Positions 29,319 through 42,346 of a stretch of 42,346 bases of DNA are shown one piece after another. The stretch is from Candidatus Woesearchaeota archaeon (GTDB lineage: Archaea; Nanobdellota; Nanobdellia; SCGC-AAA011-G17; PNOQ01), in the NCBI GenBank assembly GCA_018663865.1, contig JABJPM010000017.1:1-42346 (forward strand), read 5' to 3'. Numbering within the stretch: position 1 is the first letter of the stretch; every line of letters begins with the position of its first letter. The position numbers and the translations under genes are program-made. Under the pieces are notes generated by a model. That model ran no database searches. It was not told where the DNA came from and was given only the letters and a program-made list of their open reading frames with translations.

Positions 29319-32300
29319 CTACATAAATTCATTAAGGGCGGATTGTATTTCTGGATCTTTCATAAAAACACTCTCCAACCTTTTTTTTAAAATATCAATG
29401 GACTGCTGAGAATATACTGGTAACTTATATTCATCTGATAATTTCACAATTTTGTCCCAATATTTTACTACTGATCCCTCTGAAATTGTAAATAATAGTC
29501 TTCCCCCGCATGCAGTGCAATTTCCTGCAAGAGGTGGACGCCTAAATTTTTCATTGCAGGCAACACACCTAAATTGTTGCATACTGAATTTACGTAAATT
29601 TCCTTTTAAATCCCTAAGAAAATGCCTCTCGATAACTAATCTAGCAACATCATCCTCATCTACCGCACGGATTTTGCATGCAAGGGACATTTGACCTTTT
29701 ACTTTTTCCCCCATTGTTGGCAAAAATTTATAAGCACTATAAATTACTCCTGAATTAATATTTTTTACAGGATGAGTATATCCGTATTGGGTGAATTCCT
29801 TCGGGGAACCAAGATTATCCTTTAATTGTTCAATTTTAATATCATAAGGCTCTTTGAATTTTTCACAGGCCTCATAGAATTCTAAGGGATAACTCCAAAC
29901 CACATCCATGTTAAAAACCATATCATCCACCTCACTAGGGATTAATTTAGATGATAAAACTAGGCATGCGTCCTGGGTTGCACCCCTGTGGGCAGGTAAA
30001 AAGTGCCTTGAAAAATTTAAAAATCCATCCATCATAAGCATAATCCCATTTTCATCACCATCGCAATCTCTCCTCTGTGCACTATGCCACAAAGGATGTG
30101 CATAACAGCCTTGAGTATCAGAAAATCCCACTATCCTACCAATTATTCCTGCAGAAGTATGGGGGGCTAAACTGATTATTAAATGCCCAATAATATCTTT
30201 TTTATTTTTCAGGTTATAATAGGGTTTGAGCCCATAAAAATTTACCAATAAATCATCAATAAAATTGGCAATCTTGAACATTGCCACATCTGCCCCCTCC
30301 TCAGGAGATCCTGTGCAACCCGGCAATACTACGTCCTGTGGCTTCAGCAATAATATTTGATTATCGTCCACAAGTTCATTACCATATATATCCTTGTCGT
30401 ACCCCAACTCCCTAAGTTTTGCAACAGGTGTATAGACTTCATTTGGTTTAAATTGTGTGAGGGACATTTCAGACATATCATATCGGATTGTACCATCTTT
30501 ATTGACATTCAAATTATGTACTGCCCTCAAAACCCCTTTTGATAAGTGTTCAGATAGATGATTTTGATTTGTAGTCTCCCTTAATCCCTTGATTATTGAA
30601 GGAAATTCAGGGAGGGATAACCTCTTTTTAACATTATCAAGATGATTAGTTATATTTATTTCTCTGACACCATAGCTTTTTACTTTCTCATATTTATTTT
30701 CAACATTCTTATGTAACTCACAAATATCCCCTTCAATATTTTTTTCACATTTTGGACAAAAATATTTTAATTCTGTTTTAGAATTACAACTCTCACATAA
30801 AGGGTAAATTTCATCAGAATCACATTTAGCACAATAATAATTCGGAAATGCAGCAGTTATTTTTCCATTCTCCATCGCTGCCTGAAATGATTTAAATCTT
30901 CCCCCCTCTTCCCCCACAGGAAATAGTGCATGAGGACTGCCAGTTAATTTTCGCAATTTTGCTTTTTCTGGCCGACCCATTCTAGCCCCAATAAAAGTTC
31001 CAGATTTATCCTTTATCTTTGCAAAAGAAAATTTATTTATTATATTTAAAATTTCTTTTTTATCAGATGCATACTGTGTGATTTTTTTAAAATCCATATT
31101 ATTATTATCTATCCCGAGATTCGCCATTAATGCTGCAGCAGTATCACCCTCAATCATTATAAATTCATTATTTGTGATTTTGTGAGGAATGCCCAAATTT
31201 TCCAAAATTACTTTCGGGATTTCACATTCTGCTGTAGAATAATTAATTGGTAAAATAATCTTTGATTCTTTAACATTTATGGCGGAATGCAATAGCCAAT
31301 CAATAAAAATTAAAAATTCTTTGATTGAAACTTCATTCCAGAAAAAAATATATCGGGGGTGTAAGGGGATGCCCATAGTTTCTGAAAGTTTTAGTGCATC
31401 TCTAAAAGAGATTTTTGCAGAGAGGGGATTATTAAATATATTTTTGATAGATATATTTTCGATTCCAGTTAACCTACATATCTCCTCTTGTGTTTTACTT
31501 TTTGATTCTAATTCTTTGAACCACCATTCCTCGCAATAACCTGCTGGAACCAACTTATGTGCCCGATCATAAAAATCACCGTATGGCACAAGGATATCCC
31601 CGAGATATATTATTTTTTCAATATTTTTTTTGTGAGTTTCAATATTGTCCTCGGTTAAATAGACGACCTCACCAGTATCCAATTTAACAATGGGGCCATC
31701 AATACTATCACATGAACTAAGTGCAGTTCCCTTACTTGGGCGTTCCCATTTCAATTGGGTGCCAATCCCAATATAATCTTCTAATATTTTCATGGTTACT
31801 GGACTTATTGCAGTAGAACTAAGGCCAGTATTTCGTGCACGACCATATCTTAATCTGAATCCTCCGCTACGCATTGGATGAGACAATATTGGCCGACCTG
31901 CAACTAAATCTTTGATATATGTATAATCCGGTTTTATTAATTCGCCAGAATTTCCAACAGACTTACCCTTAGATTTTATTTTTTTTTGTAATTTTACGAA
32001 CTCCTCCAAAAATTCCCAATGATCCATATCAAATTCGCCATACCATTTAGAAAATTTTCCCCAAAATTTGGCAAATTTTTGGGCTAGCCCCTCTGCATAA
32101 ACTAAGCAAAATCCATTCCTAAGGACATCTGTACTTACCCTATCCAACCCTTTGTAATTCGGAACATCTAATTTCTCGCTAGGATCACCCTCAATTTGTA
32201 TTGGTAAATGGGTGGATAAAAATTTAACTTCCTCTTCAGAAGGCATATATTGTAAGTTGGTTATCCTATCATGGAAAAAATCCAATTCTGAAAAAGTTCT

Positions 32301-32852
32301 ATTTATCTCGTCTGGAGTAGGATCATATTCTGCATATCCCATTTTTTTCCGGACATAATCACAAACAGCAACAAAAATACAGGTCGCAGTAGTTCCCGCA
32401 CTTCGAATTGGCCCTCCGAAGTATAATGAAAAAAATTGCCCTTGCCCATCCAATCTATCTTTTAATTCCAATCGAATGAAACCTTCTAATGGACTAGCTA
32501 CAACGCCATTTGTAATATATGCTAATCCGACCCTTAATGCAATTTCCATTGCCTCATGTTTATCTTTGAATTTACAAAATTTCTCTTTTGCTACTTCTTC
32601 CGAAATAACAAAACTAATTCTCCAGTCTTGAGATCCCCATTTTTTTTCTAATTCGAGTATTCTCTCACTTAATCCGGACCCCATGATCTGCGGTGCAACT
32701 ACACTAATTAATCCCTCTACCCTTTCGGCCATATTCTTTGCTAAAGGAATTTCAACACTCTCAGAAGGATCGTGCCCTTTGGATCTCGCATTCTGTGCAA
32801 CACTATATCCTTTTGCTACTTCCCCTTCCAATAATTCAAAATATTTTTCCAT
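29319..32852 (-). CDS. polC: DNA polymerase D large subunit DP2
   Basis: GPIRSAGT, GGFRLRYGR, RRDCDGDE catalytic motif, Zn fingers, C-terminal PIP box QSALNEFM; no intein seen. Confidence 0.98.
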   Translation of the reverse strand: MEKYFELLEGEVAKGYSVAQNARSKGHDPSESVEIPLAKNMAERVEGLISVVAPQIMGSGLSERILELEKKWGSQDWRISFVISEEVAKEKFCKFKDKHEAMEIALRVGLAYITNGVVASPLEGFIRLELKDRLDGQGQFFSLYFGGPIRSAGTTATCIFVAVCDYVRKKMGYAEYDPTPDEINRTFSELDFFHDRITNLQYMPSEEEVKFLSTHLPIQIEGDPSEKLDVPNYKGLDRVSTDVLRNGFCLVYAEGLAQKFAKFWGKFSKWYGEFDMDHWEFLEEFVKLQKKIKSKGKSVGNSGELIKPDYTYIKDLVAGRPILSHPMRSGGFRLRYGRARNTGLSSTAISPVTMKILEDYIGIGTQLKWERPSKGTALSSCDSIDGPIVKLDTGEVVYLTEDNIETHKKNIEKIIYLGDILVPYGDFYDRAHKLVPAGYCEEWWFKELESKSKTQEEICRLTGIENISIKNIFNNPLSAKISFRDALKLSETMGIPLHPRYIFFWNEVSIKEFLIFIDWLLHSAINVKESKIILPINYSTAECEIPKVILENLGIPHKITNNEFIMIEGDTAAALMANLGIDNNNMDFKKITQYASDKKEILNIINKFSFAKIKDKSGTFIGARMGRPEKAKLRKLTGSPHALFPVGEEGGRFKSFQAAMENGKITAAFPNYYCAKCDSDEIYPLCESCNSKTELKYFCPKCEKNIEGDICELHKNVENKYEKVKSYGVREINITNHLDNVKKRLSLPEFPSIIKGLRETTNQNHLSEHLSKGVLRAVHNLNVNKDGTIRYDMSEMSLTQFKPNEVYTPVAKLRELGYDKDIYGNELVDDNQILLLKPQDVVLPGCTGSPEEGADVAMFKIANFIDDLLVNFYGLKPYYNLKNKKDIIGHLIISLAPHTSAGIIGRIVGFSDTQGCYAHPLWHSAQRRDCDGDENGIMLMMDGFLNFSRHFLPAHRGATQDACLVLSSKLIPSEVDDMVFNMDVVWSYPLEFYEACEKFKEPYDIKIEQLKDNLGSPKEFTQYGYTHPVKNINSGVIYSAYKFLPTMGEKVKGQMSLACKIRAVDEDDVARLVIERHFLRDLKGNLRKFSMQQFRCVACNEKFRRPPLAGNCTACGGRLLFTISEGSVVKYWDKIVKLSDEYKLPVYSQQSIDILKKRLESVFMKDPEIQSALNEFM

Positions 32853-34325
32853 TTATTCACAAAATTTCATTAATTTAACATCTCTAGTTTGTAGACTTAC
32901 CAATGGGACTCTGCAGGGTTCAGGATGGTGTCCGACTTTTTCCTGAAATTTAGTAATAGCTTGCCAACAACTTCCAGAAATTAAAGTTGTTTTACCATAA
33001 TGGCTGACGCTTGATTTATGGATGTGCCCTGAAGCAAAAAAATCAGGGACATCTTTGATTATTAAATCATCTCTGTCGGGTTCAACTACGAATAATGTTG
33101 AACCATGGGATGGCGCAAGGTGCCTTTTTTTCATTAAAAATTTCATAACTAAATCTGCACGATCATATCCTCCTTGTTCCCTGATACTTTCAACCTGGTC
33201 AATATAATAATCAAAACTATATCCATGATACATTAAAACATTAAAACCCTCAAAATTATCTTTTGATCCGATATTGACTACAGCGGGATTACTTACAATA
33301 TGGACATTATCCATTGCGTAAAGATTACTTGCAAATTCCTCATCGAGAACTGGTTGAGGTTCGGCCAATCTTAGTGCGTCATGATTTCCGGGGCAAACAA
33401 TAATTTGTAAATCGCTCCGCATTTTGGAAAAATAGTGCGCACATTGATCATATTGATCTTTTATGTTGGGAATGGATAATTCTGCCTCCTGATTAGGATA
33501 GATCCCTGCACCATCTACAATGTCACCTATAACAAATAAATATTTGACAGATTTTGCCATTTTTTGTTGCTCTTCACTACCAGAATTACCATTTATCCAA
33601 TCTATGAATTTTTCAAATTCCTTTTCCAAAAACATATCGGACCCGACATGTATATCGGAAATAAATGCGGCATGCTCATTAATTATAGATTTTTTCATAA
33701 TATTATCTTCGATTTTGACATCGGGAAAAAATAATTCATTTACAAATACAATCTTGTTCCCCATGTTGCCAACCAGCCCTATTACTTCATCGGGCACTAT
33801 ATCCTTCGCCATATCAAAAATTTCTTTTTTTGTTGAATTTATTAAAACTTTTATTTTTCCAGTTGGATCTTCAATTTCTAACATTACATTGCCATTTTTT
33901 GTCATTTTTTTACTATATACTAATCCAATCAAGGACACCTTTTCTCTTTGCATTTTAGAAAATGTCCTACTAACAGACATAACATCTGTCAATTCAATTC
34001 TGCCCTGCAATAATTTACTCATAAATTTATATCTTGTCCTGTAATGTTCGATAAAATGCCCGATTTCTATTTTACTTAATTTATCTTCATATGAATCTAT
34101 AATTTTAACATTCCCAATTAAAGGAGATTCACCCTGTGAACTTGAATTTTCACATTTTAAATATTTTAATTTTAATTTGTCTAATATGGACTTATTCAAT
34201 ACTTGACCCCTAATCTCATTGGCATGGCCATTGATTAAATCAAAAGAGGAATCATCAATCAAACTAATCACATCGGGATCAAGAAATATCCCCTCATCCA
34301 TCAAATTTTTTATTTTTTCATTCAT
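32853..34325 (-). CDS. polB: DNA polymerase D small subunit DP1 (proofreading exonuclease)
   Basis: SDIHVGS, GDIVDG, PGNHD, YHG, RHLAP, GHIH; ATG 34325 overlaps the cdc6 stop (ATGA). Confidence 0.97.
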   Translation of the reverse strand: MNEKIKNLMDEGIFLDPDVISLIDDSSFDLINGHANEIRGQVLNKSILDKLKLKYLKCENSSSQGESPLIGNVKIIDSYEDKLSKIEIGHFIEHYRTRYKFMSKLLQGRIELTDVMSVSRTFSKMQREKVSLIGLVYSKKMTKNGNVMLEIEDPTGKIKVLINSTKKEIFDMAKDIVPDEVIGLVGNMGNKIVFVNELFFPDVKIEDNIMKKSIINEHAAFISDIHVGSDMFLEKEFEKFIDWINGNSGSEEQQKMAKSVKYLFVIGDIVDGAGIYPNQEAELSIPNIKDQYDQCAHYFSKMRSDLQIIVCPGNHDALRLAEPQPVLDEEFASNLYAMDNVHIVSNPAVVNIGSKDNFEGFNVLMYHGYSFDYYIDQVESIREQGGYDRADLVMKFLMKKRHLAPSHGSTLFVVEPDRDDLIIKDVPDFFASGHIHKSSVSHYGKTTLISGSCWQAITKFQEKVGHHPEPCRVPLVSLQTRDVKLMKFCE

Positions 34326-35536
34326 ATACTGAGCCACCCACGCAATTGAGAAATTAATCCAGGTATACTTGACTGCGGCATGGCAAGACCAATTTCCTTT
34401 GTACGCCCATATCGCCCCTTACTAATAACTTTAGCATTGATTATACCCAACATGTCTAATTCTGCAATTAGGTCTGACAATCTCCTTTGTGTTAAAGGTT
34501 TTAATCCGCATTTTATGCAGAGGTTCATATATACCTCATATACATCTCCAGTAAAAAATTTCTCATTACCTTTTTTTTCATATAGATCAAAAATCGCCAA
34601 TAAAGTTAATTGTGATTGTTTAGGCAAGGTATTTATTACCTCTACAACTAAATCATTTTCTATTTTTGATTCAGCCTCATCAATATGCACTATATCCACT
34701 TTCAAATCATTTTTTCGTTCAGCTAGCTCCCCTGCAACCCTCAATAGATCTAAGGCCCTCCTGGCATCACCATGCTCCCTTGCGGCATAGGCAGCACATT
34801 TTTCAATTACTCCCTCAGAGATAGAGCCATCTTTGAATGCACCTTTTGATCTTTCAAGTAAAATATCTTGCAATTGTAATGCATTATATGATGGAAAATT
34901 TAAATCCTCCTCTGCGAGAGAAGATTTTATTCTCGGATCAAGATCGTTTGCAAACCGGAGATCGTTTGATACCCCTACAAATGTCACCTGAGTATTTTTT
35001 AATTCTGCATTCATCCGGGTTAAATTATAGAGAATTTCATCTCCTGCCTTTTTTACTAGTTGATCAATTTCATCAAGAATTAAAATTATTTGATTAGGGC
35101 CAGCCTCAATATTTTTTATGAATAATCGGTAGACTTCATCAGTAGGTAATCCTGTGACAGGAATATTCTTTTGCCCAAACTCTCTAGCCAAACTAGCAAT
35201 GAGCCTATATTCTGTATCTGCAACCCTTTTTAATTTACAATTAATATAAACTACTTTTAAGGGTAAATCCTTACTATTGGAAATCTCCCTAAGATTATTT
35301 GTTACATGCAATACTGACAAAGTTTTTCCAGTACCAGTTTTACCATATAGAAATAAATTTGAAGGTTTCTCATTTCTAAGTACTGGGGCAAGGACACCTG
35401 CAATCTCATTAATCTGCTCATCCCTGTGAGGGATAGTGTCCGGAGTATAACTTGTTTGCAAAATCTTTTTATTTTTGAAAATCGATTCTTTTCCAAGGTA
35501 ATCTTCAAAAAAATTTTTTATCCCATCTTTTGTCAT
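34322..35536 (-). CDS. cdc6: Cdc6/Orc1 replication initiator
   Basis: GKTGTGKT, ILDEID, HGDARRALDLLR, C-terminal wHTH with KGRYGRT. Confidence 0.97.
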   Translation of the reverse strand: MTKDGIKNFFEDYLGKESIFKNKKILQTSYTPDTIPHRDEQINEIAGVLAPVLRNEKPSNLFLYGKTGTGKTLSVLHVTNNLREISNSKDLPLKVVYINCKLKRVADTEYRLIASLAREFGQKNIPVTGLPTDEVYRLFIKNIEAGPNQIILILDEIDQLVKKAGDEILYNLTRMNAELKNTQVTFVGVSNDLRFANDLDPRIKSSLAEEDLNFPSYNALQLQDILLERSKGAFKDGSISEGVIEKCAAYAAREHGDARRALDLLRVAGELAERKNDLKVDIVHIDEAESKIENDLVVEVINTLPKQSQLTLLAIFDLYEKKGNEKFFTGDVYEVYMNLCIKCGLKPLTQRRLSDLIAELDMLGIINAKVISKGRYGRTKEIGLAMPQSSIPGLISQLRGWLSI

Positions 35537-35598
35537 TTTATTTTTCAAAATAGAAAATATCTATTTAAACATTGTTATATTTGAAAATAGACTCCTAG

Positions 35599-35618
35599 CC
35601 CTTCATTTCCTTTGGAAC
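35599..35618 (-). promoter_or_regulatory. Origin recognition box (ORB)
   Basis: Minus strand GTTCCAAAGGAAATGAAGGG, similar to the archaeal consensus GTTCCAGTGGAAAC...GGGG. Confidence 0.8.
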
Positions 35619-35688: not shown

Positions 35689-35895
35689 ATATATATACTA
35701 TATAATATATTTATATAATATATATATAATATAATAATAAAACTTAAAAACAAAAATTTAATTAAAAATTAAAAATTTTTCAAATATATGCCAATACAAA
35801 CCTCCTACTGCCATAATAATATAATATAATATAATATAATATAATTATTATCGAAGATAAAACAAAAACAAAAACAAAAACAAAAAAATAAAATG
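35689..35895. repeat. AT-rich DNA-unwinding element with (ATAAT)n and (AAAAAC)n microrepeats
   Basis: TA-rich run 35689-35742, about six ATAAT units near 35816-35845, about four AAAAAC units near 35858-35887. Confidence 0.75.
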
Positions 35896-35910
35896 GACTC
35901 CATTAGAAAT
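35896..35910 (+). promoter_or_regulatory. Mini-ORB-like element
   Basis: GACTCCATTAGAAAT. Confidence 0.5.
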
Positions 35911-35926
35911 TTTAATAATTAAACAT

Positions 35927-35955
35927 CTCCACTGGCAACAAAGGTCCGGGGGGGT
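35927..35955 (+). promoter_or_regulatory. ORB with G-string
   Basis: CTCCACTGGCAACAAAGGTCCGGGGGGGT. Confidence 0.75.
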
Positions 35956-37334: not shown

Positions 37335-38024
37335 ATGGCAATCACAACAATAATTATTTTAACAATATTATTATTTATTTTTTACAAGATAACACATATA
37401 ATCTGGAAAGCAATAATATATACTTTGATTATATTGCTCGTTATCATGGGGACTACAACATATCTGGTGTATAATGATGTTCAAAAAATAATATCTGATG
37501 ACAAAATTATTATTATTTCAAATGAAAATGAAGTTTTAACCGGGGCAATATTTTCGAATAACAATGAAAAGATGACATATTTGGATCAAAACGAGATTGA
37601 CAATTATTCGATATTATTGGGACAAGGGAATATGGGTGCAATAAAAGGTGAAAAATACATCTTAGCAAGGTTAGATATTTCTAATTTATCTGACATGGGG
37701 AATATTAGTTATTCAAACATAACGATGAATCTTGATGAAGTAAAACAATTAATGTTGGCAAGAACTCTCGACGAATTCCCAATTAATTTTAATGATTTAT
37801 CGGAATTTGAGGATGATCAAGTTTTAGAGGATACTGATAAATTGATAAAATGCAAAATGCGCCTTTCAATGCTATTGATGAGGGGGATGATGGTAAAAAG
37901 CATACTATTTGATAATTTATCAATATATCCTGAACGAATAACCTCGAAACTAATTGAAGAATTTCCAAAAATATCTCTGTTGGCAAAAAATAAACTGGAC
38001 GAACATACATTAAAAAATGGATGA
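37335..38024 (+). CDS. Membrane-anchored hypothetical protein
   Basis: Two N-terminal TM helices followed by a soluble domain. Confidence 0.7.
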   Translation: MAITTIIILTILLFIFYKITHIIWKAIIYTLIILLVIMGTTTYLVYNDVQKIISDDKIIIISNENEVLTGAIFSNNNEKMTYLDQNEIDNYSILLGQGNMGAIKGEKYILARLDISNLSDMGNISYSNITMNLDEVKQLMLARTLDEFPINFNDLSEFEDDQVLEDTDKLIKCKMRLSMLLMRGMMVKSILFDNLSIYPERITSKLIEEFPKISLLAKNKLDEHTLKNG

Positions 38025-38550
38025 TCTGTCAATAATCTCGGATGACGGGGAATATCAAACAATAAACAAAAGGAAGAAAAAGATAATGGGCCTAACAATT
38101 ATCTTATTAATTAGTTCTTATTTTTTATTGGGCAATGCCGCATTCCCATTTCTGGCAAGCATGTCCGAATCAATTGAAATAGATAACAATAGGATACACG
38201 TCGGGCCCAATCTAACAATAATATTTGAGGACAACACCTATGGGGTCATTCAAAATATGTACTTGCAAAGCCAATCAGTAGAATTTGCAGTATGTCTATT
38301 CGGGGATGTCCGTGGTGGAAATTACATTATCGATGAAGTGTATGCGCCTCAAGCAATCGATCAATCATTCAATCACATAAAATTTAAATCTTGCCCCCTA
38401 GATACATTGATACTGTTACACTCTCACCCTCATAAGAAGTGTATAGCATCCAATCAAGACATAAATACTTTACAAACAATAAAAGAAAGGAATAATGATT
38501 CTCTAATAGTGGTCATGTGCGACACCAATAAATTTTCAGTTTATGATTAA
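38017..38550 (+). CDS. Membrane-anchored JAMM/MPN+ metalloprotease-like protein
   Basis: E(FAVCL)...HSH-x7-S-x2-D (HSHPHKKCIASNQD); TM after KRKKK. Confidence 0.8.
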   Translation: MDDLSIISDDGEYQTINKRKKKIMGLTIILLISSYFLLGNAAFPFLASMSESIEIDNNRIHVGPNLTIIFEDNTYGVIQNMYLQSQSVEFAVCLFGDVRGGNYIIDEVYAPQAIDQSFNHIKFKSCPLDTLILLHSHPHKKCIASNQDINTLQTIKERNNDSLIVVMCDTNKFSVYD

Positions 38551-38600: not shown

Positions 38601-38876
38601 ATGCCAAAAATAAGCGATAAAAAAATAGAAAGAATAAAAGAAGGAATAATCTCTTACCTTTATGATCACCCTGCAAAACCATTATTTACTTCTCAAATAG
38701 CGGAAGAAATGATAAGGGACGAGGAATTTATTTTGAGATTGTTGAATGAGCTCTATGCTTCAAAATTAATAAAAAAAATATCTTCAAATTCAAAAGGAAA
38801 GGAATTTTTATCGAGGAGAAAATGGACCTTAAGGGCAGAAGTATATACAAAATATAGTGAATTGGTAAATAACTAA
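38601..38876 (+). CDS. Small winged-helix DNA-binding protein
   Basis: IISYLY..PLFTSQIAEEMIRDEEFILRLLNEL..KLI...RRKWTL. Confidence 0.72.
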   Translation: MPKISDKKIERIKEGIISYLYDHPAKPLFTSQIAEEMIRDEEFILRLLNELYASKLIKKISSNSKGKEFLSRRKWTLRAEVYTKYSELVNN

Positions 38877-38931
38877 TTAGTTATATTTCTCACTTTATTT
38901 CTTTTGTTAATCAATTGCTTCTTGAGAGATT

Positions 38932-39001
38932 CAATTCATTACTAATCAATAACCGATCAATCAATCACCAATCAATCACTAATTAATCACTAATTAATCA
39001 C
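38932..39001 (+). repeat. Intergenic direct-repeat array, 11-bp unit YAATYAATCAC
   Basis: Four exact tandem units at 38958, 38969, 38980 and 38991; two degenerate units at 38932 and 38943. Confidence 0.9.
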
Positions 39002-39174
39002 GCACCATGGATACTCATATTTACTTGCCTAATCAACATAAAACTAGATCAAACGTTCTTATTTTCTGGCTTTCTCACAAATACACTTAGAAATCGGGCC
39101 TAACTTTCACTTAATACATATATTAATCTCATAAAACTATAAAAATGAACCCTCACTCTTTATTTTTGAGATAG

Positions 39175-39864
39175 ATGGATGAAAAAATTCTAAAAAAAGC
39201 TTTTGTAAAAGTAAAATCAGATATTGAAAATTTAAATAATAGGTTGGAAAATATTGAAAATACCCTGAATTTACTCATTTCTATCAAAAATAATCAAAAA
39301 AACACTAAAAACGATGGAAGTTCCAGTGGAAATGAAGGGGTCCGATCAATCAATCATTCAACAAACAATCAATCAATCACTAATCAATCACGTGCTGAGC
39401 ACAAAATCGGGCAGTATACCCCTCAAATAAGCCATAATTATGATAATTTGGAACGATCTGATCAATCACTGAGCAATCAATCACTGAGCAATCAATCCCT
39501 TTCTAAACACTCACTAAGCACTCAAAAATTAAATATTCAATCACTCAAGAAGGATCTAGAAAATCGATTTAATGCCCTCACTAGTCAAGAATTTCTAGTA
39601 TTTCTTACAATATATCAAATGGAGGAGGACCTTAAACGGCCAGTGACTTATAATGATCTATCTGAACGTTTAAACCTCACTTCTGGATGTATTAGGGGGT
39701 ATGTAAGTGCATTAATCAGGAAGAATTTACCCCTCACAAAGGCAAAAATAAACAACAGAACATTGACATTATCCATAAAATCTGATTTCAAAGAGTTAAA
39801 TCTCAAACAAAAATTAACAAATATCTACTATGATCAAGATCCAGATCAAACAAAACTATTTTAA
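39175..39864 (+). CDS. Coiled-coil + repeat linker + winged-helix protein
   Basis: N-terminal heptads; S/N/Q-rich linker; LTSQEFLVFLTIY...VTYNDLSERLNLTSGCIRGYVSALIRK wHTH. Confidence 0.8.
   Translation: MDEKILKKAFVKVKSDIENLNNRLENIENTLNLLISIKNNQKNTKNDGSSSGNEGVRSINHSTNNQSITNQSRAEHKIGQYTPQISHNYDNLERSDQSLSNQSLSNQSLSKHSLSTQKLNIQSLKKDLENRFNALTSQEFLVFLTIYQMEEDLKRPVTYNDLSERLNLTSGCIRGYVSALIRKNLPLTKAKINNRTLTLSIKSDFKELNLKQKLTNIYYDQDPDQTKLF
39320..39341 (+). promoter_or_regulatory. ORB element embedded in coding sequence
   Basis: GTTCCAGTGGAAATGAAGGGGT; 18/20 identical to the ORB at 35599-35618. Confidence 0.7.
39347..39544 (+). repeat. Intragenic copies of the CAATCAATCAC motif
   Basis: Copies at 39347, 39370, 39381, 39459, 39474, 39489; degenerate at 39504 and 39534. 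Confidence 0.85.
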
Positions 39865-39933
39865 TTATGATTTCTAGTAAAAATTATTAATTGTTGCTAA
39901 TAAATTATTCATCGTCGATAAAACTACAATATA

Positions 39934-40004
39934 ATCGTTCACCGAACGTTCGGTGAACGTTCACCGAACTGTCTATAGACGTCACCGAACGTTCGGTGAA
40001 CGAT
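39934..40004. repeat. Palindromic array of GTTCACCGAAC/GTTCGGTGAAC 11-mers
   Basis: Units at 39937, 39948, 39959, 39980 (1 mismatch) and 39991; 24-bp perfect palindrome at 39936-39959; 23-bp perfect terminal inverted repeats. Confidence 0.92.
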
Positions 40005-40041
40005 GCAAAACGTTTATATAGGGGTAATATCAAATATAGGT

Positions 40042-40641
40042 ATGTTTAATTTTTTTAAAAGAGGAAAAAATGATCCAAGGCTCGCTGAAACTATTTCAAC
40101 AATGCAGGAGAGTTTAAAAAAATCATTTACAAATATAAAGAAAGATTTTTCGATGATGGATGGCCATAATAAAACATTCCATGAAAAGCATGAAAAACAC
40201 ACAATTGATCATGGGGAGCATCGAAAAAATATCCAATTGCTTGGTGAGAGGTTAAAATCAATTGAAGAGTCACTGGGCATACTAAAGGAGATAGAAATAG
40301 TGAATGAGGAAGTGAGTGGCGAAGTTGAGGCAGATTTTGGAAATTTAGAGGATATGACTGGGGTATCTCAGAAAATATGTTATGTTCTAGCAGCATTACA
40401 AAAAGAGAACAAAGGCATGGTGACCCTAAAAACCCTTGCAGAAGAAATGTATCCTGGAAAAGAGTATGCAAAAATTAGGTCAACAATATCGCAGTATACT
40501 ACGGAGTTAGAAGAATTGGGCTATGTCCAAAAAAAGAAAAAAGGAAAACAAGTATACATCAAATCTACTGAAAAAAACCCATTTCTAAGTGAGAAGTTAA
40601 CTCCGAAAAAGGTAACAAAAAAAATCAAAATAAAAAAATAA
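40042..40641 (+). CDS. Coiled-coil + winged-helix protein
   Basis: TTTATATA at 40013-40020 then ATG 40042; VTLKTLAEEMYPGKEYAKIRSTISQYTTELEELGYVQKKKKGKQVYI; Lys-rich tail. Confidence 0.8.
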   Translation: MFNFFKRGKNDPRLAETISTMQESLKKSFTNIKKDFSMMDGHNKTFHEKHEKHTIDHGEHRKNIQLLGERLKSIEESLGILKEIEIVNEEVSGEVEADFGNLEDMTGVSQKICYVLAALQKENKGMVTLKTLAEEMYPGKEYAKIRSTISQYTTELEELGYVQKKKKGKQVYIKSTEKNPFLSEKLTPKKVTKKIKIKK

Positions 40642-41594: not shown

Positions 41595-42346
41595 ATGGTC
41601 GAAAATAAATTAAAAACTGCAATCTATGTAAGGGTATCTACCGATGAACAAGCAAAAGAGGGGATCTCAATATCTGCTCAAATCGATAGGTGTCAAAACT
41701 ATTGCAAAGCGCGATCTTGGAAAGTAATTAATATTTATACTGATGCAGGATATTCTGCTGGTTCAATGAAGCGTCCAGCCGTCCAACAATTATTTCAAGA
41801 TCTACGTGAAAATAAATTTGAAAATATTTTAGTCTATAAATTTGATAGGTTCTCGAGAAATGTCAGAGACTTAATAACTTTTTTAGATAATCTGAAAGCT
41901 CAAGAAGTAAATTTTACATCTGTTACGGAAAATATAGATACTACGACTGCAATGGGGGAAGCATTTTTTCAGATGATTGGTGTTTTTGCACAATTGGAGA
42001 GGGGGATGGTAAAAGAACGAGTAAAGTTAGCATTCGATAAGAAAATTAGCGATGGAGAATCATTAAGTCGTGCACCAAAAGGATATATGTATAATAATGG
42101 GAAATTAATCGTCGACAAAAAAAATTCAAACGAAATAAAACAAATTTTTGATATGAGGGCGGCAGGAATACATTATAAAATAATCTCGGACAAATTCAAT
42201 ATTCCCATATCTACATTGTATAACATAATAAAAAATCCAACCTATGCTGGAAAAATAAAGTATAATGGTGAAATATATGAGGGAACTCATAGCGCAATCA
42301 TAGATCCCGCATTATTCAACAATCTAAATCCCTTGCAATCTATAAA
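41595..42346 (+). CDS. Serine recombinase (resolvase catalytic domain + recombinase domain), runs off window
   Basis: Not in ORF track: MVENKLKTAIYVRVSTDEQ...SAGSMKRP...YKFDRFSRN...AQLER...APKGY...KNPTYAG...GTHSAII. Confidence 0.95.
   Translation, partial: MVENKLKTAIYVRVSTDEQAKEGISISAQIDRCQNYCKARSWKVINIYTDAGYSAGSMKRPAVQQLFQDLRENKFENILVYKFDRFSRNVRDLITFLDNLKAQEVNFTSVTENIDTTTAMGEAFFQMIGVFAQLERGMVKERVKLAFDKKISDGESLSRAPKGYMYNNGKLIVDKKNSNEIKQIFDMRAAGIHYKIISDKFNIPISTLYNIIKNPTYAGKIKYNGEIYEGTHSAIIDPALFNNLNPLQSI

What the first reader, a model, noticed from the sequence alone, without database searches (positions are those of the whole stretch)
39320..39341. Near-consensus ORB with G-string embedded inside a protein-coding gene
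Seen: GTTCCAGTGGAAATGAAGGGGT, read as SSGNEGV in the low-complexity linker, matches the oriC ORB at 18/20 and is closer to the archaeal consensus than the intergenic boxes. The repeat array starts 6 bp downstream. Inference: this is dual-coding DNA, acting as a Cdc6 titration site (datA-like), a second arm of a bipartite origin, or a Cdc6-controlled transcriptional roadblock. Any apparent peptide conservation here may reflect selection on the DNA.
Basis: partly seen in the sequence, partly recalled or inferred. Interest (0 to 1): 0.8.

Follow-up and report, generated by a model that had tools for sequence, protein, structure and literature searches.

The report
Origin-recognition box conserved inside a gene
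A 22-base binding site for the archaeal replication initiator sits inside a protein-coding gene a few kilobases from the replication origin and has been preserved as DNA, not as protein, across two orders of tiny DPANN archaea.

Summary
GTTCCAGTGGAAATGAAGGGGT lies at 39320-39341 (+), in the disordered linker of ORF 39175..39864 (N-terminal helix plus C-terminal MarR-like winged helix), 3.8 kb from the cdc6/orc1 start.

- **ORB identity:** it is letter-for-letter a published ORB (PMC4153887, Table 2). A matrix built from its orthologous copies finds only two strong sites in the 594-kb assembly: this one, and one 70 bp upstream of cdc6.
- **Conservation:** the motif is present with at most 2 mismatches in 54 of 54 orthologous genes of the same order, and with at most 1 mismatch in 20 of 20 from another order.
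- **DNA-level selection:** the four motif codons show almost no synonymous change (TCC 47/47, GGG 49/49). Thirty-four other conserved codons of the same gene vary freely.
- **Frame independence:** 7 of 74 orthologues read the same DNA in another frame.

So the selection is on nucleotides. Best reading: an outlying, high-affinity Orc1/Cdc6 box linked to oriC. Initiator binding and the exact role (gating the host gene, or origin control) remain untested. In-gene ORBs are known in Thermococcales dp1, so this is a new variant of a known kind.

The parts
39320..39341 (+). Gene-embedded ORB: dyad TTCCAGTGGAA, A-rich spacer, G-string GGGGT
   Evidence: Matrix score 40.3 bits, the top site in the genome. 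Identical to a published ORB. Conserved in 74 of 74 orthologues.
39175..39864 (+). Host gene, 229 aa: N-terminal long helix (residues 3-41), disordered linker (43-118, which carries the ORB at residues 49-56), C-terminal winged-helix domain (113-221)
   Evidence: AlphaFold2; linker pLDDT below 50. (MarR-like folds, E about 3e-4). No Pfam or NCBIfam family at cut-off. Found in 54 of 61 relatives.
39345..39390 (+). G-poor period-4 tandem array (ATCA/CAAT units) directly after the ORB
   Evidence: Orthologues carry lineage-specific 4-nt arrays (CAAT, CATT, CAAA, GACA, CACT) at the same place.
38944..39001 (+). Upstream intergenic array of the same unit (CAATCAATCAC x4, period 11)
   Evidence: The same unit appears upstream and in the gene in 7 of 52 loci.
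35597..35618 (-). cdc6-proximal oriC ORB (GTTCCAAAGGAAATGAAGGGCT), 70 bp upstream of the cdc6 start
   Evidence: (27.3 bits). Relatives have a box 52-78 bp upstream in 20 hits.
35699..35898 (.). AT-rich stretch between the two oriC boxes (80-98% A+T), a candidate unwinding element
35926..35955 (+). Candidate distal oriC ORB (TCTCCACTGGCAAC...GGGGGGGT). Inverted relative to the proximal box; same polarity as the in-gene ORB
   Evidence: 7.5 bits; one of 9 positions scoring 0 or more in the window. Distal boxes in relatives lie 268-489 bp upstream of cdc6.
34322..35548 (-). orc1/cdc6 initiator gene (AAA+, lid and Cdc6_C winged-helix domains)
29319..34337 (-). PolD small (32853..34337) and large (29319..32852) subunit genes downstream of cdc6

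Best explanation
The 22-mer is a genuine origin recognition box (ORB), a DNA site for the Orc1/Cdc6 initiator encoded 3.8 kb away. Purifying selection on the nucleotides keeps it inside the linker-coding part of a conserved coiled-coil/winged-helix gene.

Inferred mechanism: one Orc1/Cdc6 monomer binds with its winged helix on the TTCCAnnGGAA dyad and its AAA+ initiator-specific motif on the GGGGT side, as on canonical ORBs.

The box lies outside the oriC core. It has the polarity of the distal oriC box, with the G-string pointing away from the origin. It is therefore an outlying, origin-linked initiator site.

My preferred role, inferred and not shown, is that initiator occupancy inside the ORF gates transcription of the host gene (an intragenic roadblock), so that the level of this DNA-binding protein follows Orc1 status. 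A direct effect on origin firing is the close second.

Shown: the sequence identity to ORBs, its rarity, the DNA-level selection, the frame independence, and the linkage and polarity relative to cdc6/oriC.

Inferred: Orc1 binding and the functional consequence.
For: ORB identity:
- The motif equals a published ORB and is near the archaeal consensus (PMC4153887 Table 2, passage read).
- The same motif class sits 52-125 bp and 268-489 bp upstream of cdc6 in relatives, in inverted orientation.
- In single-contig G025, the only two sites at up to 2 mismatches are the cdc6-upstream box and the gene.

Rarity:
- Two sites above 11 bits in the 594-kb assembly.
- 45 pattern hits in 61 genomes against 0 for the reversed control. 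By my cross-reading, 39 of the 45 lie inside this gene.
- Class-wide, 151 of 201 genomes have a hit, against 2 control hits.

DNA-level selection:
- Positions 0-4, 7-12, 14 and 16-20 are near-invariant with no 3-nt periodicity. This includes positions 19-20, which were not part of the search pattern.
- Motif codons: TCC 47/47, GGA 44/46, AAT 43/44, GGG 49/49. At 34 other conserved codons the top-codon fraction is 0.31-0.82, and the next codon, Val, is 0.49.
- TCC makes up 9.7% of Ser codons and GGG 16.9% of Gly codons in this genome.
- 5 of 54 and 2 of 20 orthologues read the box in another frame, as V-P-x-E-x-x-G.
- The encoded residues lie in a predicted disordered linker.

Linkage:
- The gene and the cdc6-1 orthologue share a contig, 3.6-16 kb apart, in the window and in 33 fetched loci. 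The G-string points away from oriC in all 34.

Precedent:
- Cdc6 binds an ORB cluster inside the dp1 gene of Pyrococcus in vivo and in vitro (PMC1904270, passages read).
Against: - No binding data exist for this clade. Orc1 binding is inferred from sequence alone.
- The box always lies on the sense strand of the gene, so an RNA-level reading is not excluded by the codon and frame evidence.
- The roadblock role has no direct support. No RNA run holding the locus was listed (see Tried and rejected).
- The distance to oriC varies from 3.6 to 16 kb, which argues against a fixed architectural role in the origin.
- G027 (estimated 100% complete) keeps the gene and the box, but no cdc6-1 orthologue was found there. 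Two further genomes estimated at about 90% complete are similar: G029 (92%) and G041 (89%).
- The matrix was built from the in-gene copies, so their high scores are partly by construction.
- The genomes compared are related, so the counts are not independent events.
Confidence: 0.7

Rival explanations
1. The box binds Orc1/Cdc6, but its role is in origin control and not in regulating the host gene. It could be an outlying second arm, a weak sink, or a fork or MCM-positioning site, and it merely happens to be lodged in this linker.
For: - Linkage to cdc6/oriC and constant polarity relative to oriC in 34 of 34 loci.
- Precedents: the dp1 ORB cluster in Thermococcales and the ORB-rich oriC2D region that negatively controls oriC2 in Haloarcula (PMC3936714, passages read).
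- Other orders of the class, which lack this gene, also carry lone consensus ORBs near or away from their ORB clusters.
Against: - A single box has little titrating capacity. oriC2D has 11 ORBs.
- The distance to oriC varies more than four-fold.
- The box has stayed in this one gene across two orders while the intervening genes changed.
Confidence: 0.25
2. The site is bound by the gene's own winged-helix product, either alone or in competition with Orc1. It would be an autoregulatory or parS-in-parB-like arrangement, and the ORB likeness would reflect competition for ORBs.
For: - The site and the gene are co-inherited in 74 of 74 orthologues.
- The recognition-helix region is nearly invariant (G171, C172, I173, R174, Y176), although the adjacent repeat units differ between lineages. 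The protein's target should therefore be a conserved sequence.
- Genus g13 lacks the gene, the box and the cdc6-1 orthologue together.
Against: - The conserved block is asymmetric (dyad, A-rich spacer, one-sided G-string). That fits a monomeric bipartite Orc1 contact, not a coiled-coil dimer of winged helices.
- The same motif marks cdc6-upstream origins in orders where the gene was not found.
- The fold is generic MarR-like.
Confidence: 0.1
3. The element acts in the mRNA, as a protein-binding or structural RNA motif, and not in DNA.
For: It lies on the sense strand in every orthologue. Codon invariance and frame independence fit RNA-level selection as well as DNA-level selection.
Against: - No Rfam match.
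- The local RNA fold is no better than shuffles: z = +1.42, with 187 of 200 shuffles folding at least as well.
- The stem-forming letters never covary and are simply invariant.
- The same motif occurs on either strand in non-transcribed cdc6-upstream DNA and equals the pan-archaeal ORB.
Confidence: 0.05
4. It is a conserved peptide motif (S-x-G-N-x-G-V) under protein-level selection, and the likeness to an ORB is coincidence.
For: S50, G52, N53 and G55 are invariant in the 31-sequence protein alignment.
Against: - 7 of 74 orthologues encode a different peptide from the same DNA.
- Rare codons are fixed, while other conserved residues of the same gene use 2-6 codons.
- Non-synonymous change is tolerated at the ORB-variable positions.
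- The residues lie in a region with pLDDT below 50.
Confidence: 0.02

Closest known systems
ORB3 and mini-ORB cluster inside the dp1 (PolD small subunit) gene of Pyrococcus/Thermococcales (Matsunaga et al. 2007, PMC1904270; passages read)
   Same: - Initiator boxes embedded in a protein-coding gene within a few kb of cdc6/oriC.
- Conserved across an order.
- There shown to bind Cdc6 by ChIP and gel shift.
   Different: - Here there is a single consensus box, not a cluster.
- It lies on the far side of oriC from cdc6 in 31 of 34 loci, in a winged-helix gene's disordered linker rather than in dp1.
- No ORB-grade site was found in the window's dp1 or dp2 (best 9.0 bits).
- Binding is untested here.
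oriC2D, the ORB-rich region downstream of cdc6E in Haloarcula hispanica (Wu et al. 2014, PMC3936714; passages read)
   Same: ORBs outside the origin core that act on the origin (negative control, 'likely via Cdc6E-titrating').
   Different: oriC2D is intergenic and holds 11 ORBs in 722 bp. Here there is one box inside a coding sequence.
Orphan ORB3 of 'Ca. Methanomassiliicoccus intestinalis' (PMC4153887, Table 2; passage read)
   Same: Identical 22 letters. Listed there as not closely associated with another ORB.
   Different: - That one is described as lying downstream of ftsZ, far from orc1/cdc6.
- No conservation or coding-overlap analysis is given in the passage I read.
Canonical oriC ORBs bound by Orc1-1 with defined polarity (summarised in PMC12141716, and PMC3089459; passages read)
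   Same: Dyad plus one-sided G-rich element. The same motif class as the cdc6-upstream boxes of this genome.
   Different: It does not flank the AT-rich unwinding element. It lies 3.4 kb beyond the distal box.

Membership tests
Archaeal origin recognition box (ORB; Orc1/Cdc6 site) | Sequence: TTCC-N3-GGAA dyad, A-rich spacer, G-string, matching published ORBs | tested here: met
   Identical to a listed ORB. Against the printed archaeal consensus it differs at 2 positions plus a 1-nt gap, by my own comparison with the table.
Archaeal origin recognition box (ORB; Orc1/Cdc6 site) | Same motif class present at the cdc6-adjacent origin of the same genome and of its relatives | tested here: met
   35597-35618 (-) scores 27.3 bits. 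Boxes lie upstream of cdc6 in 29 of the 33 relatives' loci scanned, plus the window (4 loci had no hit at 8 bits or more, one of them with only 198 nt available).
Archaeal origin recognition box (ORB; Orc1/Cdc6 site) | Rare in the genome (specific, not a common word) | tested here: met
   Two sites above 11 bits in 594 kb. Reversed-pattern controls gave 0 hits in 61 genomes and 2 in 201 genomes.
Archaeal origin recognition box (ORB; Orc1/Cdc6 site) | Bound by Orc1/Cdc6 | not testable with these tools
   No DNA-protein assay or model was available. This needs a gel shift or a footprint.
Archaeal origin recognition box (ORB; Orc1/Cdc6 site) | Member of an inverted pair that directly flanks the AT-rich unwinding element | tested here: not met
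   This copy lies 3.4 kb beyond the distal box, inside an ORF. It is an outlying ORB, not a core-origin ORB.
Initiator-titration locus (datA-like / oriC2D-like) | A cluster of many initiator boxes with high binding capacity | tested here: not met
   There is one box. No further core matches lie within the gene, and there are no other matrix hits. Two genomes of genus g17 have two boxes.
In-gene ORB cluster of the Thermococcales dp1 type | ORB plus several mini-ORBs inside a gene next to cdc6 | tested here: not met
   In-gene and origin-linked: yes. A cluster of mini-ORBs: no. The host gene is different.
MarR-type winged-helix regulators (host protein) | Winged-helix fold and a family profile match | tested here: inconclusive
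   Foldseek's best hits are MarR-family chains at E about 3e-4, with target-normalised TM 0.34-0.60. No Pfam family reaches cut-off (HTH_11 at 16.7 bits against a cut-off of 25). No NCBIfam hit. No solved relative by sequence.

The most novel reading that the evidence does not exclude
The winged-helix gene, the ORB inside it and the flanking iteron-like 4-nt/11-nt repeats together form an Orc1-coupled origin-control module in these DPANN archaea.

In this reading the gene product is an origin-associated regulator. Its synthesis is gated by initiator binding within its own reading frame, and it may itself act at the repeats or at ORBs. The result is a feedback loop between initiator occupancy and a second DNA-binding factor.

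The disordered linker would serve mainly as a carrier for DNA elements. Its 4-nt repeats encode the same peptide in all three frames, which buffers frame shifts.
Probability: 0.2. Interest if true: 0.8.

Novelty: new variant of a known kind. Interest (0 to 1): 0.62.

Why it matters
Replication control in DPANN archaea is essentially unstudied. I found no paper that reports ORBs in these lineages. The 2026 Nanobdellota preprint has no occurrence of 'origin recognition' in its main text.

This site is more conserved than the origin's own boxes. It is kept across two orders and in two reading frames, so it is a clean case of a protein-coding sequence constrained by a DNA-binding site.

It also offers a concrete, cheap entry point: one duplex, one recombinant initiator, one winged-helix protein. 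With these one can ask how an organism with a 0.6-Mb genome regulates initiation.

For annotation and evolutionary analysis it is a warning. 'Conserved peptide motifs' in linkers can be shadows of DNA elements.

Tried and rejected
- **RNA readings.** Rfam found no match at gathering score on the whole window. A permissive scan of 38800-40100 gave only spurious miRNA-model hits on the palindromes at 39930-40009. The RNA fold of 39290-39380 was no better than shuffles.
- **Protein identity.** There was no NCBIfam family and no solved relative by sequence. The fold search gave only generic MarR-like similarity.
- **Complex prediction**, Orc1/Cdc6 alignment A2 against host-protein alignment A1: the verdict was 'no answer'. 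This is not evidence either way.
- **The look-up of sequencing runs**: 20 DNA holders (marine or seawater metagenomes) and no RNA holder listed. This says nothing about expression.
- **Read laying** on 4 runs: only short, low-depth contigs. Two contigs covered the box without differences. The CAAT arrays attracted high-depth short contigs that run on into unlike sequence, probably from other organisms. No usable population variation or repeat-length polymorphism came out of it.
- **Mobile-element idea.** I considered that the region from 38.9 kb onward might be a mobile element bringing its own origin, given the serine recombinase at the contig end. I rejected this for the ORB host gene, because the gene is found in 54 of 61 relatives in conserved linkage to cdc6.
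- **G035.** It has a consensus box but no detectable orthologue around it, so that lone ORB sits in another context.
- **Supplements.** Supplementary files of the papers were not opened. Supplementary Figure 1 of PMC1904270 (the genome-wide map of mini-ORBs) could bear on how common orphan boxes are.

Full report
**What is there.** The window is a whole 42,346-base contig (C6) of a 594,504-base, 31-contig assembly at about 31% G+C, estimated 93% complete. A 57%-identical homologue of the host protein carries the NCBI label 'Candidatus Woesearchaeota archaeon', and the holders of the DNA are marine metagenomes. The motif GTTCCAGTGGAAATGAAGGGGT is at 39320-39341 on the + strand. It lies inside ORF 39175..39864 (229 aa), where it reads S-S-G-N-E-G-V.

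**The origin neighbourhood.**
- ORF 34322..35548 (-) is Orc1/Cdc6, with AAA+, lid and Cdc6_C domains. It is followed on the same strand by the PolD small and large subunit genes.
- The 447-nt region upstream of cdc6 holds a box at 35597-35618 (-) that differs from the finding's motif at 3 of 22 positions.
- It also holds a stretch of 80-98% A+T.
- A weaker, inverted box lies at 35926-35955 (+).
- This is the usual anatomy of a cdc6-adjacent archaeal origin as described in the reviews and papers I read in part.
- The gene-embedded box lies 3.4 kb beyond the distal box and has the same polarity as it.

**Is it an ORB, and is it more than chance?**
- Table 2 of PMC4153887 prints 'Ca. M. intestinalis ORB3' with the same 22 letters. 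It also prints an 'Archaea consensus ORB' that, by my comparison, differs at two positions and a one-base gap.
- PMC1904270 states that TTCC and GAA are the perfectly conserved core of Pyrococcus ORBs and mini-ORBs.
- The exact 12-nt core occurs once in the assembly.
- A weight matrix built from 54 orthologous copies gives 40.3 bits here and 27.3 bits at the cdc6-proximal box. Nothing else in 594 kb scores above 10.7 bits.
- In the single-contig relative G025, the only two sites at up to 2 mismatches are 0.4 kb upstream of cdc6 and in the orthologous gene.

**Conservation.**
- The host gene was found in 54 of 61 genomes of the same order.
- I extracted 54 orthologous ORFs from 53 of these genomes. 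G005 has two copies. G021's copy was seen only.
- All 54 carry the motif: 38 with no mismatch, 11 with one and 5 with two, against a pattern of 14 specified positions.
- The pattern TTCCANNGGAAATNNNGGG has 45 matches in 40 of the 61 genomes, and none for the reversed control. By comparing coordinates, 39 of the 45 lie in this gene.
- The other six are: the two cdc6-upstream boxes (G000, G025), two boxes just upstream of the gene (G034, G060), one elsewhere in G052, and one in G035, where no orthologue was detectable.
- At class level the motif (at most 1 mismatch) is in 151 of 201 genomes, with 2 control hits.
- A profile of the gene finds strong matches (E at or below 1e-23) in 51 of the 201. 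By my count, 24 of these come from families outside G000's order.
- I fetched 20 of those 24. All 20 carry the box with at most 1 mismatch. For the 4 not fetched, one search lists a box inside the gene's coordinates.

**DNA or peptide?** Three lines agree.
1. The information profile has no codon periodicity. Positions 0-4, 7-12, 14 and 16-20 are near-invariant. The dyad centre (positions 5, 6), the spacer positions (13, 15) and position 21 vary. Positions 19-20 were not in the pattern used to locate the sites, yet G is 54/54 and T is 52/54.
2. There is a control within the same 54 genes. The four motif codons have a top-codon fraction of 0.96-1.0 (TCC 47/47, GGA 44/46, AAT 43/44, GGG 49/49). 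Thirty-four other columns with a conserved residue have 0.31-0.82; for example, the invariant Pro186 uses CCT 27, CCA 15 and CCC 12. The very next codon, Val, has 0.49. TCC and GGG are minor codons in this genome, at 9.7% and 16.9%. Changes that do occur inside the box are mostly non-synonymous and fall at the ORB-variable positions.
3. Seven orthologues read the same DNA one base out of register, as V-P-x-E-x-x-G, in an uninterrupted ORF. These are 5 of 54 from four families and 2 of 20 from one genus of the other order.

The residues lie in a linker with pLDDT below 50, between an N-terminal helix and a C-terminal winged-helix domain. The selection is therefore on nucleotides. The genomes are related, so these counts are not independent events. 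The within-gene control shares the same phylogeny, however, and still varies.

**Linkage and polarity.**
- In the window and in 33 fetched loci, the gene and the cdc6-1 orthologue share a contig, 3.6-16 kb apart.
- In 31 of the 34 the gene is on the far side of oriC from cdc6. In 3 (G017, G025, G053) it is on the cdc6 side.
- In all 34 the G-string points away from oriC, and the gene is transcribed away from it. Polarity relative to the origin and relative to transcription are therefore confounded.
- In the remaining genomes that have the gene, the two lie on different contigs or no cdc6-1 orthologue was found. These are fragmented assemblies.
- The cdc6-upstream boxes of the clade are recognisably the same motif but carry GGT[C/G]T, often followed by a second G-run. 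The in-gene copy is therefore the most consensus-like box these genomes have.

**Co-occurrence.**
- Genus g13 (G030, 2 contigs, 97% complete; G057, 4 contigs, 93% complete) has no cdc6-1 orthologue, only the paralogue. It also lacks the gene and has no box at up to 2 mismatches (HMM for G030).
- This is one evolutionary event, and it is suggestive only.
- Against it: G027 (estimated 100% complete, 70 contigs), G029 (92%) and G041 (89%) keep the gene and the box, but no cdc6-1 orthologue was found in them.

**Flanking repeats.**
- Four nucleotides after the box begins a period-4, G-poor array (39345-39390).
- Orthologues have arrays at the same place with lineage-specific units: CAAT, CATT, CAAA, GACA, CACT.
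- A 4-nt repeat encodes the same cyclic peptide in all three frames and contains no stop codon. That fits the observed frame changes.
- The same unit also forms an 11-nt-period array upstream of the gene (38958-39001). In 7 of 52 loci the upstream and in-gene units coincide, including lineages with other units.
- I could not decide whether these are protein-binding sites or slippage products.

**Interpretation.** The best-supported reading is an outlying ORB bound by the origin's Orc1/Cdc6.
- The asymmetry of the conserved block (dyad, spacer, one-sided G-string) matches the bipartite, polar, monomeric contact described for Orc1 on ORBs. It fits a dimeric winged-helix protein less well.
- A datA-like sink is unlikely for a single box.
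- Between 'gates its host gene' and 'acts on the origin' the sequence evidence does not decide. I favour the first, because the box has remained in this gene while the distance and the intervening genes changed, and because of the g13 co-loss. This is inference.
- An RNA-level function is not excluded by the codon and frame data. It has no positive support, and it would not explain the same motif in cdc6-upstream DNA on either strand.

**Relation to what is known.**
- ORBs inside a coding gene next to cdc6 are established in Thermococcales. There, a cluster in dp1 binds Cdc6 in vivo and in vitro.
- ORB-rich DNA outside an origin core negatively controls oriC2 in Haloarcula.
- An orphan ORB with these same 22 letters is tabulated for a Methanomassiliicoccales genome.
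- What is new here: the host gene and its position in a disordered linker, the single consensus box, the depth of conservation across two orders of a DPANN class, and the demonstration of frame-independent, synonymous-site-level constraint.
- I found no report of this in two literature searches or in the passages of the 2026 Nanobdellota preprint.

Noticed in passing
window 39936-40002, with ORF 40003..40641: Three copies of a 22-nt palindromic unit (CGTTCACCGAACGTTCGGTGAA) sit directly upstream of a second coiled-coil/winged-helix ORF (212 aa; weak DUF6293_C hit). This looks like an operator for that protein. It produced spurious miRNA-model hits in Rfam.
   Followed up: partly
window 41595-42344 (+), running off the contig end: The N-terminal 250 aa of a large serine recombinase (best matches to the CcrB, CcrC and XisF models, all below their cut-offs). 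This may be the edge of an integrated element.
   Followed up: no
window 38958-39001 and 39345-39390; loci L003, L018, L038, L044, L050, L054: The 4-nt repeat unit after the in-gene ORB recurs in the 300 nt upstream of the gene in 7 of 52 loci. These include lineages whose unit is ACAA or CAAA instead of CAAT. That hints at iteron-like sites or at concerted evolution.
   Followed up: partly
L055, L034, L036, L040, L030, L085, L097 (orthologous genes): Some relatives carry long exact tetranucleotide arrays inside the ORF, for example (CAAA)7, (TTCA)5-6, (TCAC)n and (GACA)n. Slippage by one unit would shift the reading frame, so the gene could be phase-variable in those lineages.
   Followed up: no
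G034:C24:5406-5426, G060:C31:454-472, G045:C3:18939-18959: Extra consensus-grade ORBs lie just outside the host gene in some lineages. In genus g17 one sits 335 nt upstream of the in-gene box. In G045 one sits about 150 nt after the gene's end.
   Followed up: no
L068-L077 (other orders of the class); G061:C9: Genomes without the host gene also have lone consensus ORBs in varied contexts: intergenic, upstream of a release-factor-like ORF, and inside another ORF. In G061 two lone boxes, at 43533 (-) and 60243 (+), bracket an inverted pair at 46877/47200.
   Followed up: partly
G030 and G057 (genus g13): Two near-closed genomes lack the oriC-adjacent cdc6-1 orthologue and keep only the second Orc1/Cdc6 paralogue. 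They also lack the host gene and any ORB-pattern site. How they initiate replication is open.
   Followed up: partly
G005: C2:3297-4022 and C12:1868-2524: One same-genus relative has two copies of the host gene, about 31% identical in their matches to the query. Each has its own in-frame ORB.
   Followed up: no
window 38017-38550 (+): A 177-aa ORF with no Pfam or NCBIfam hit contains an H-S-H-P-H stretch. It reminded me of JAMM/MPN metalloprotease motifs. The motif name is recalled, not tested.
   Followed up: no
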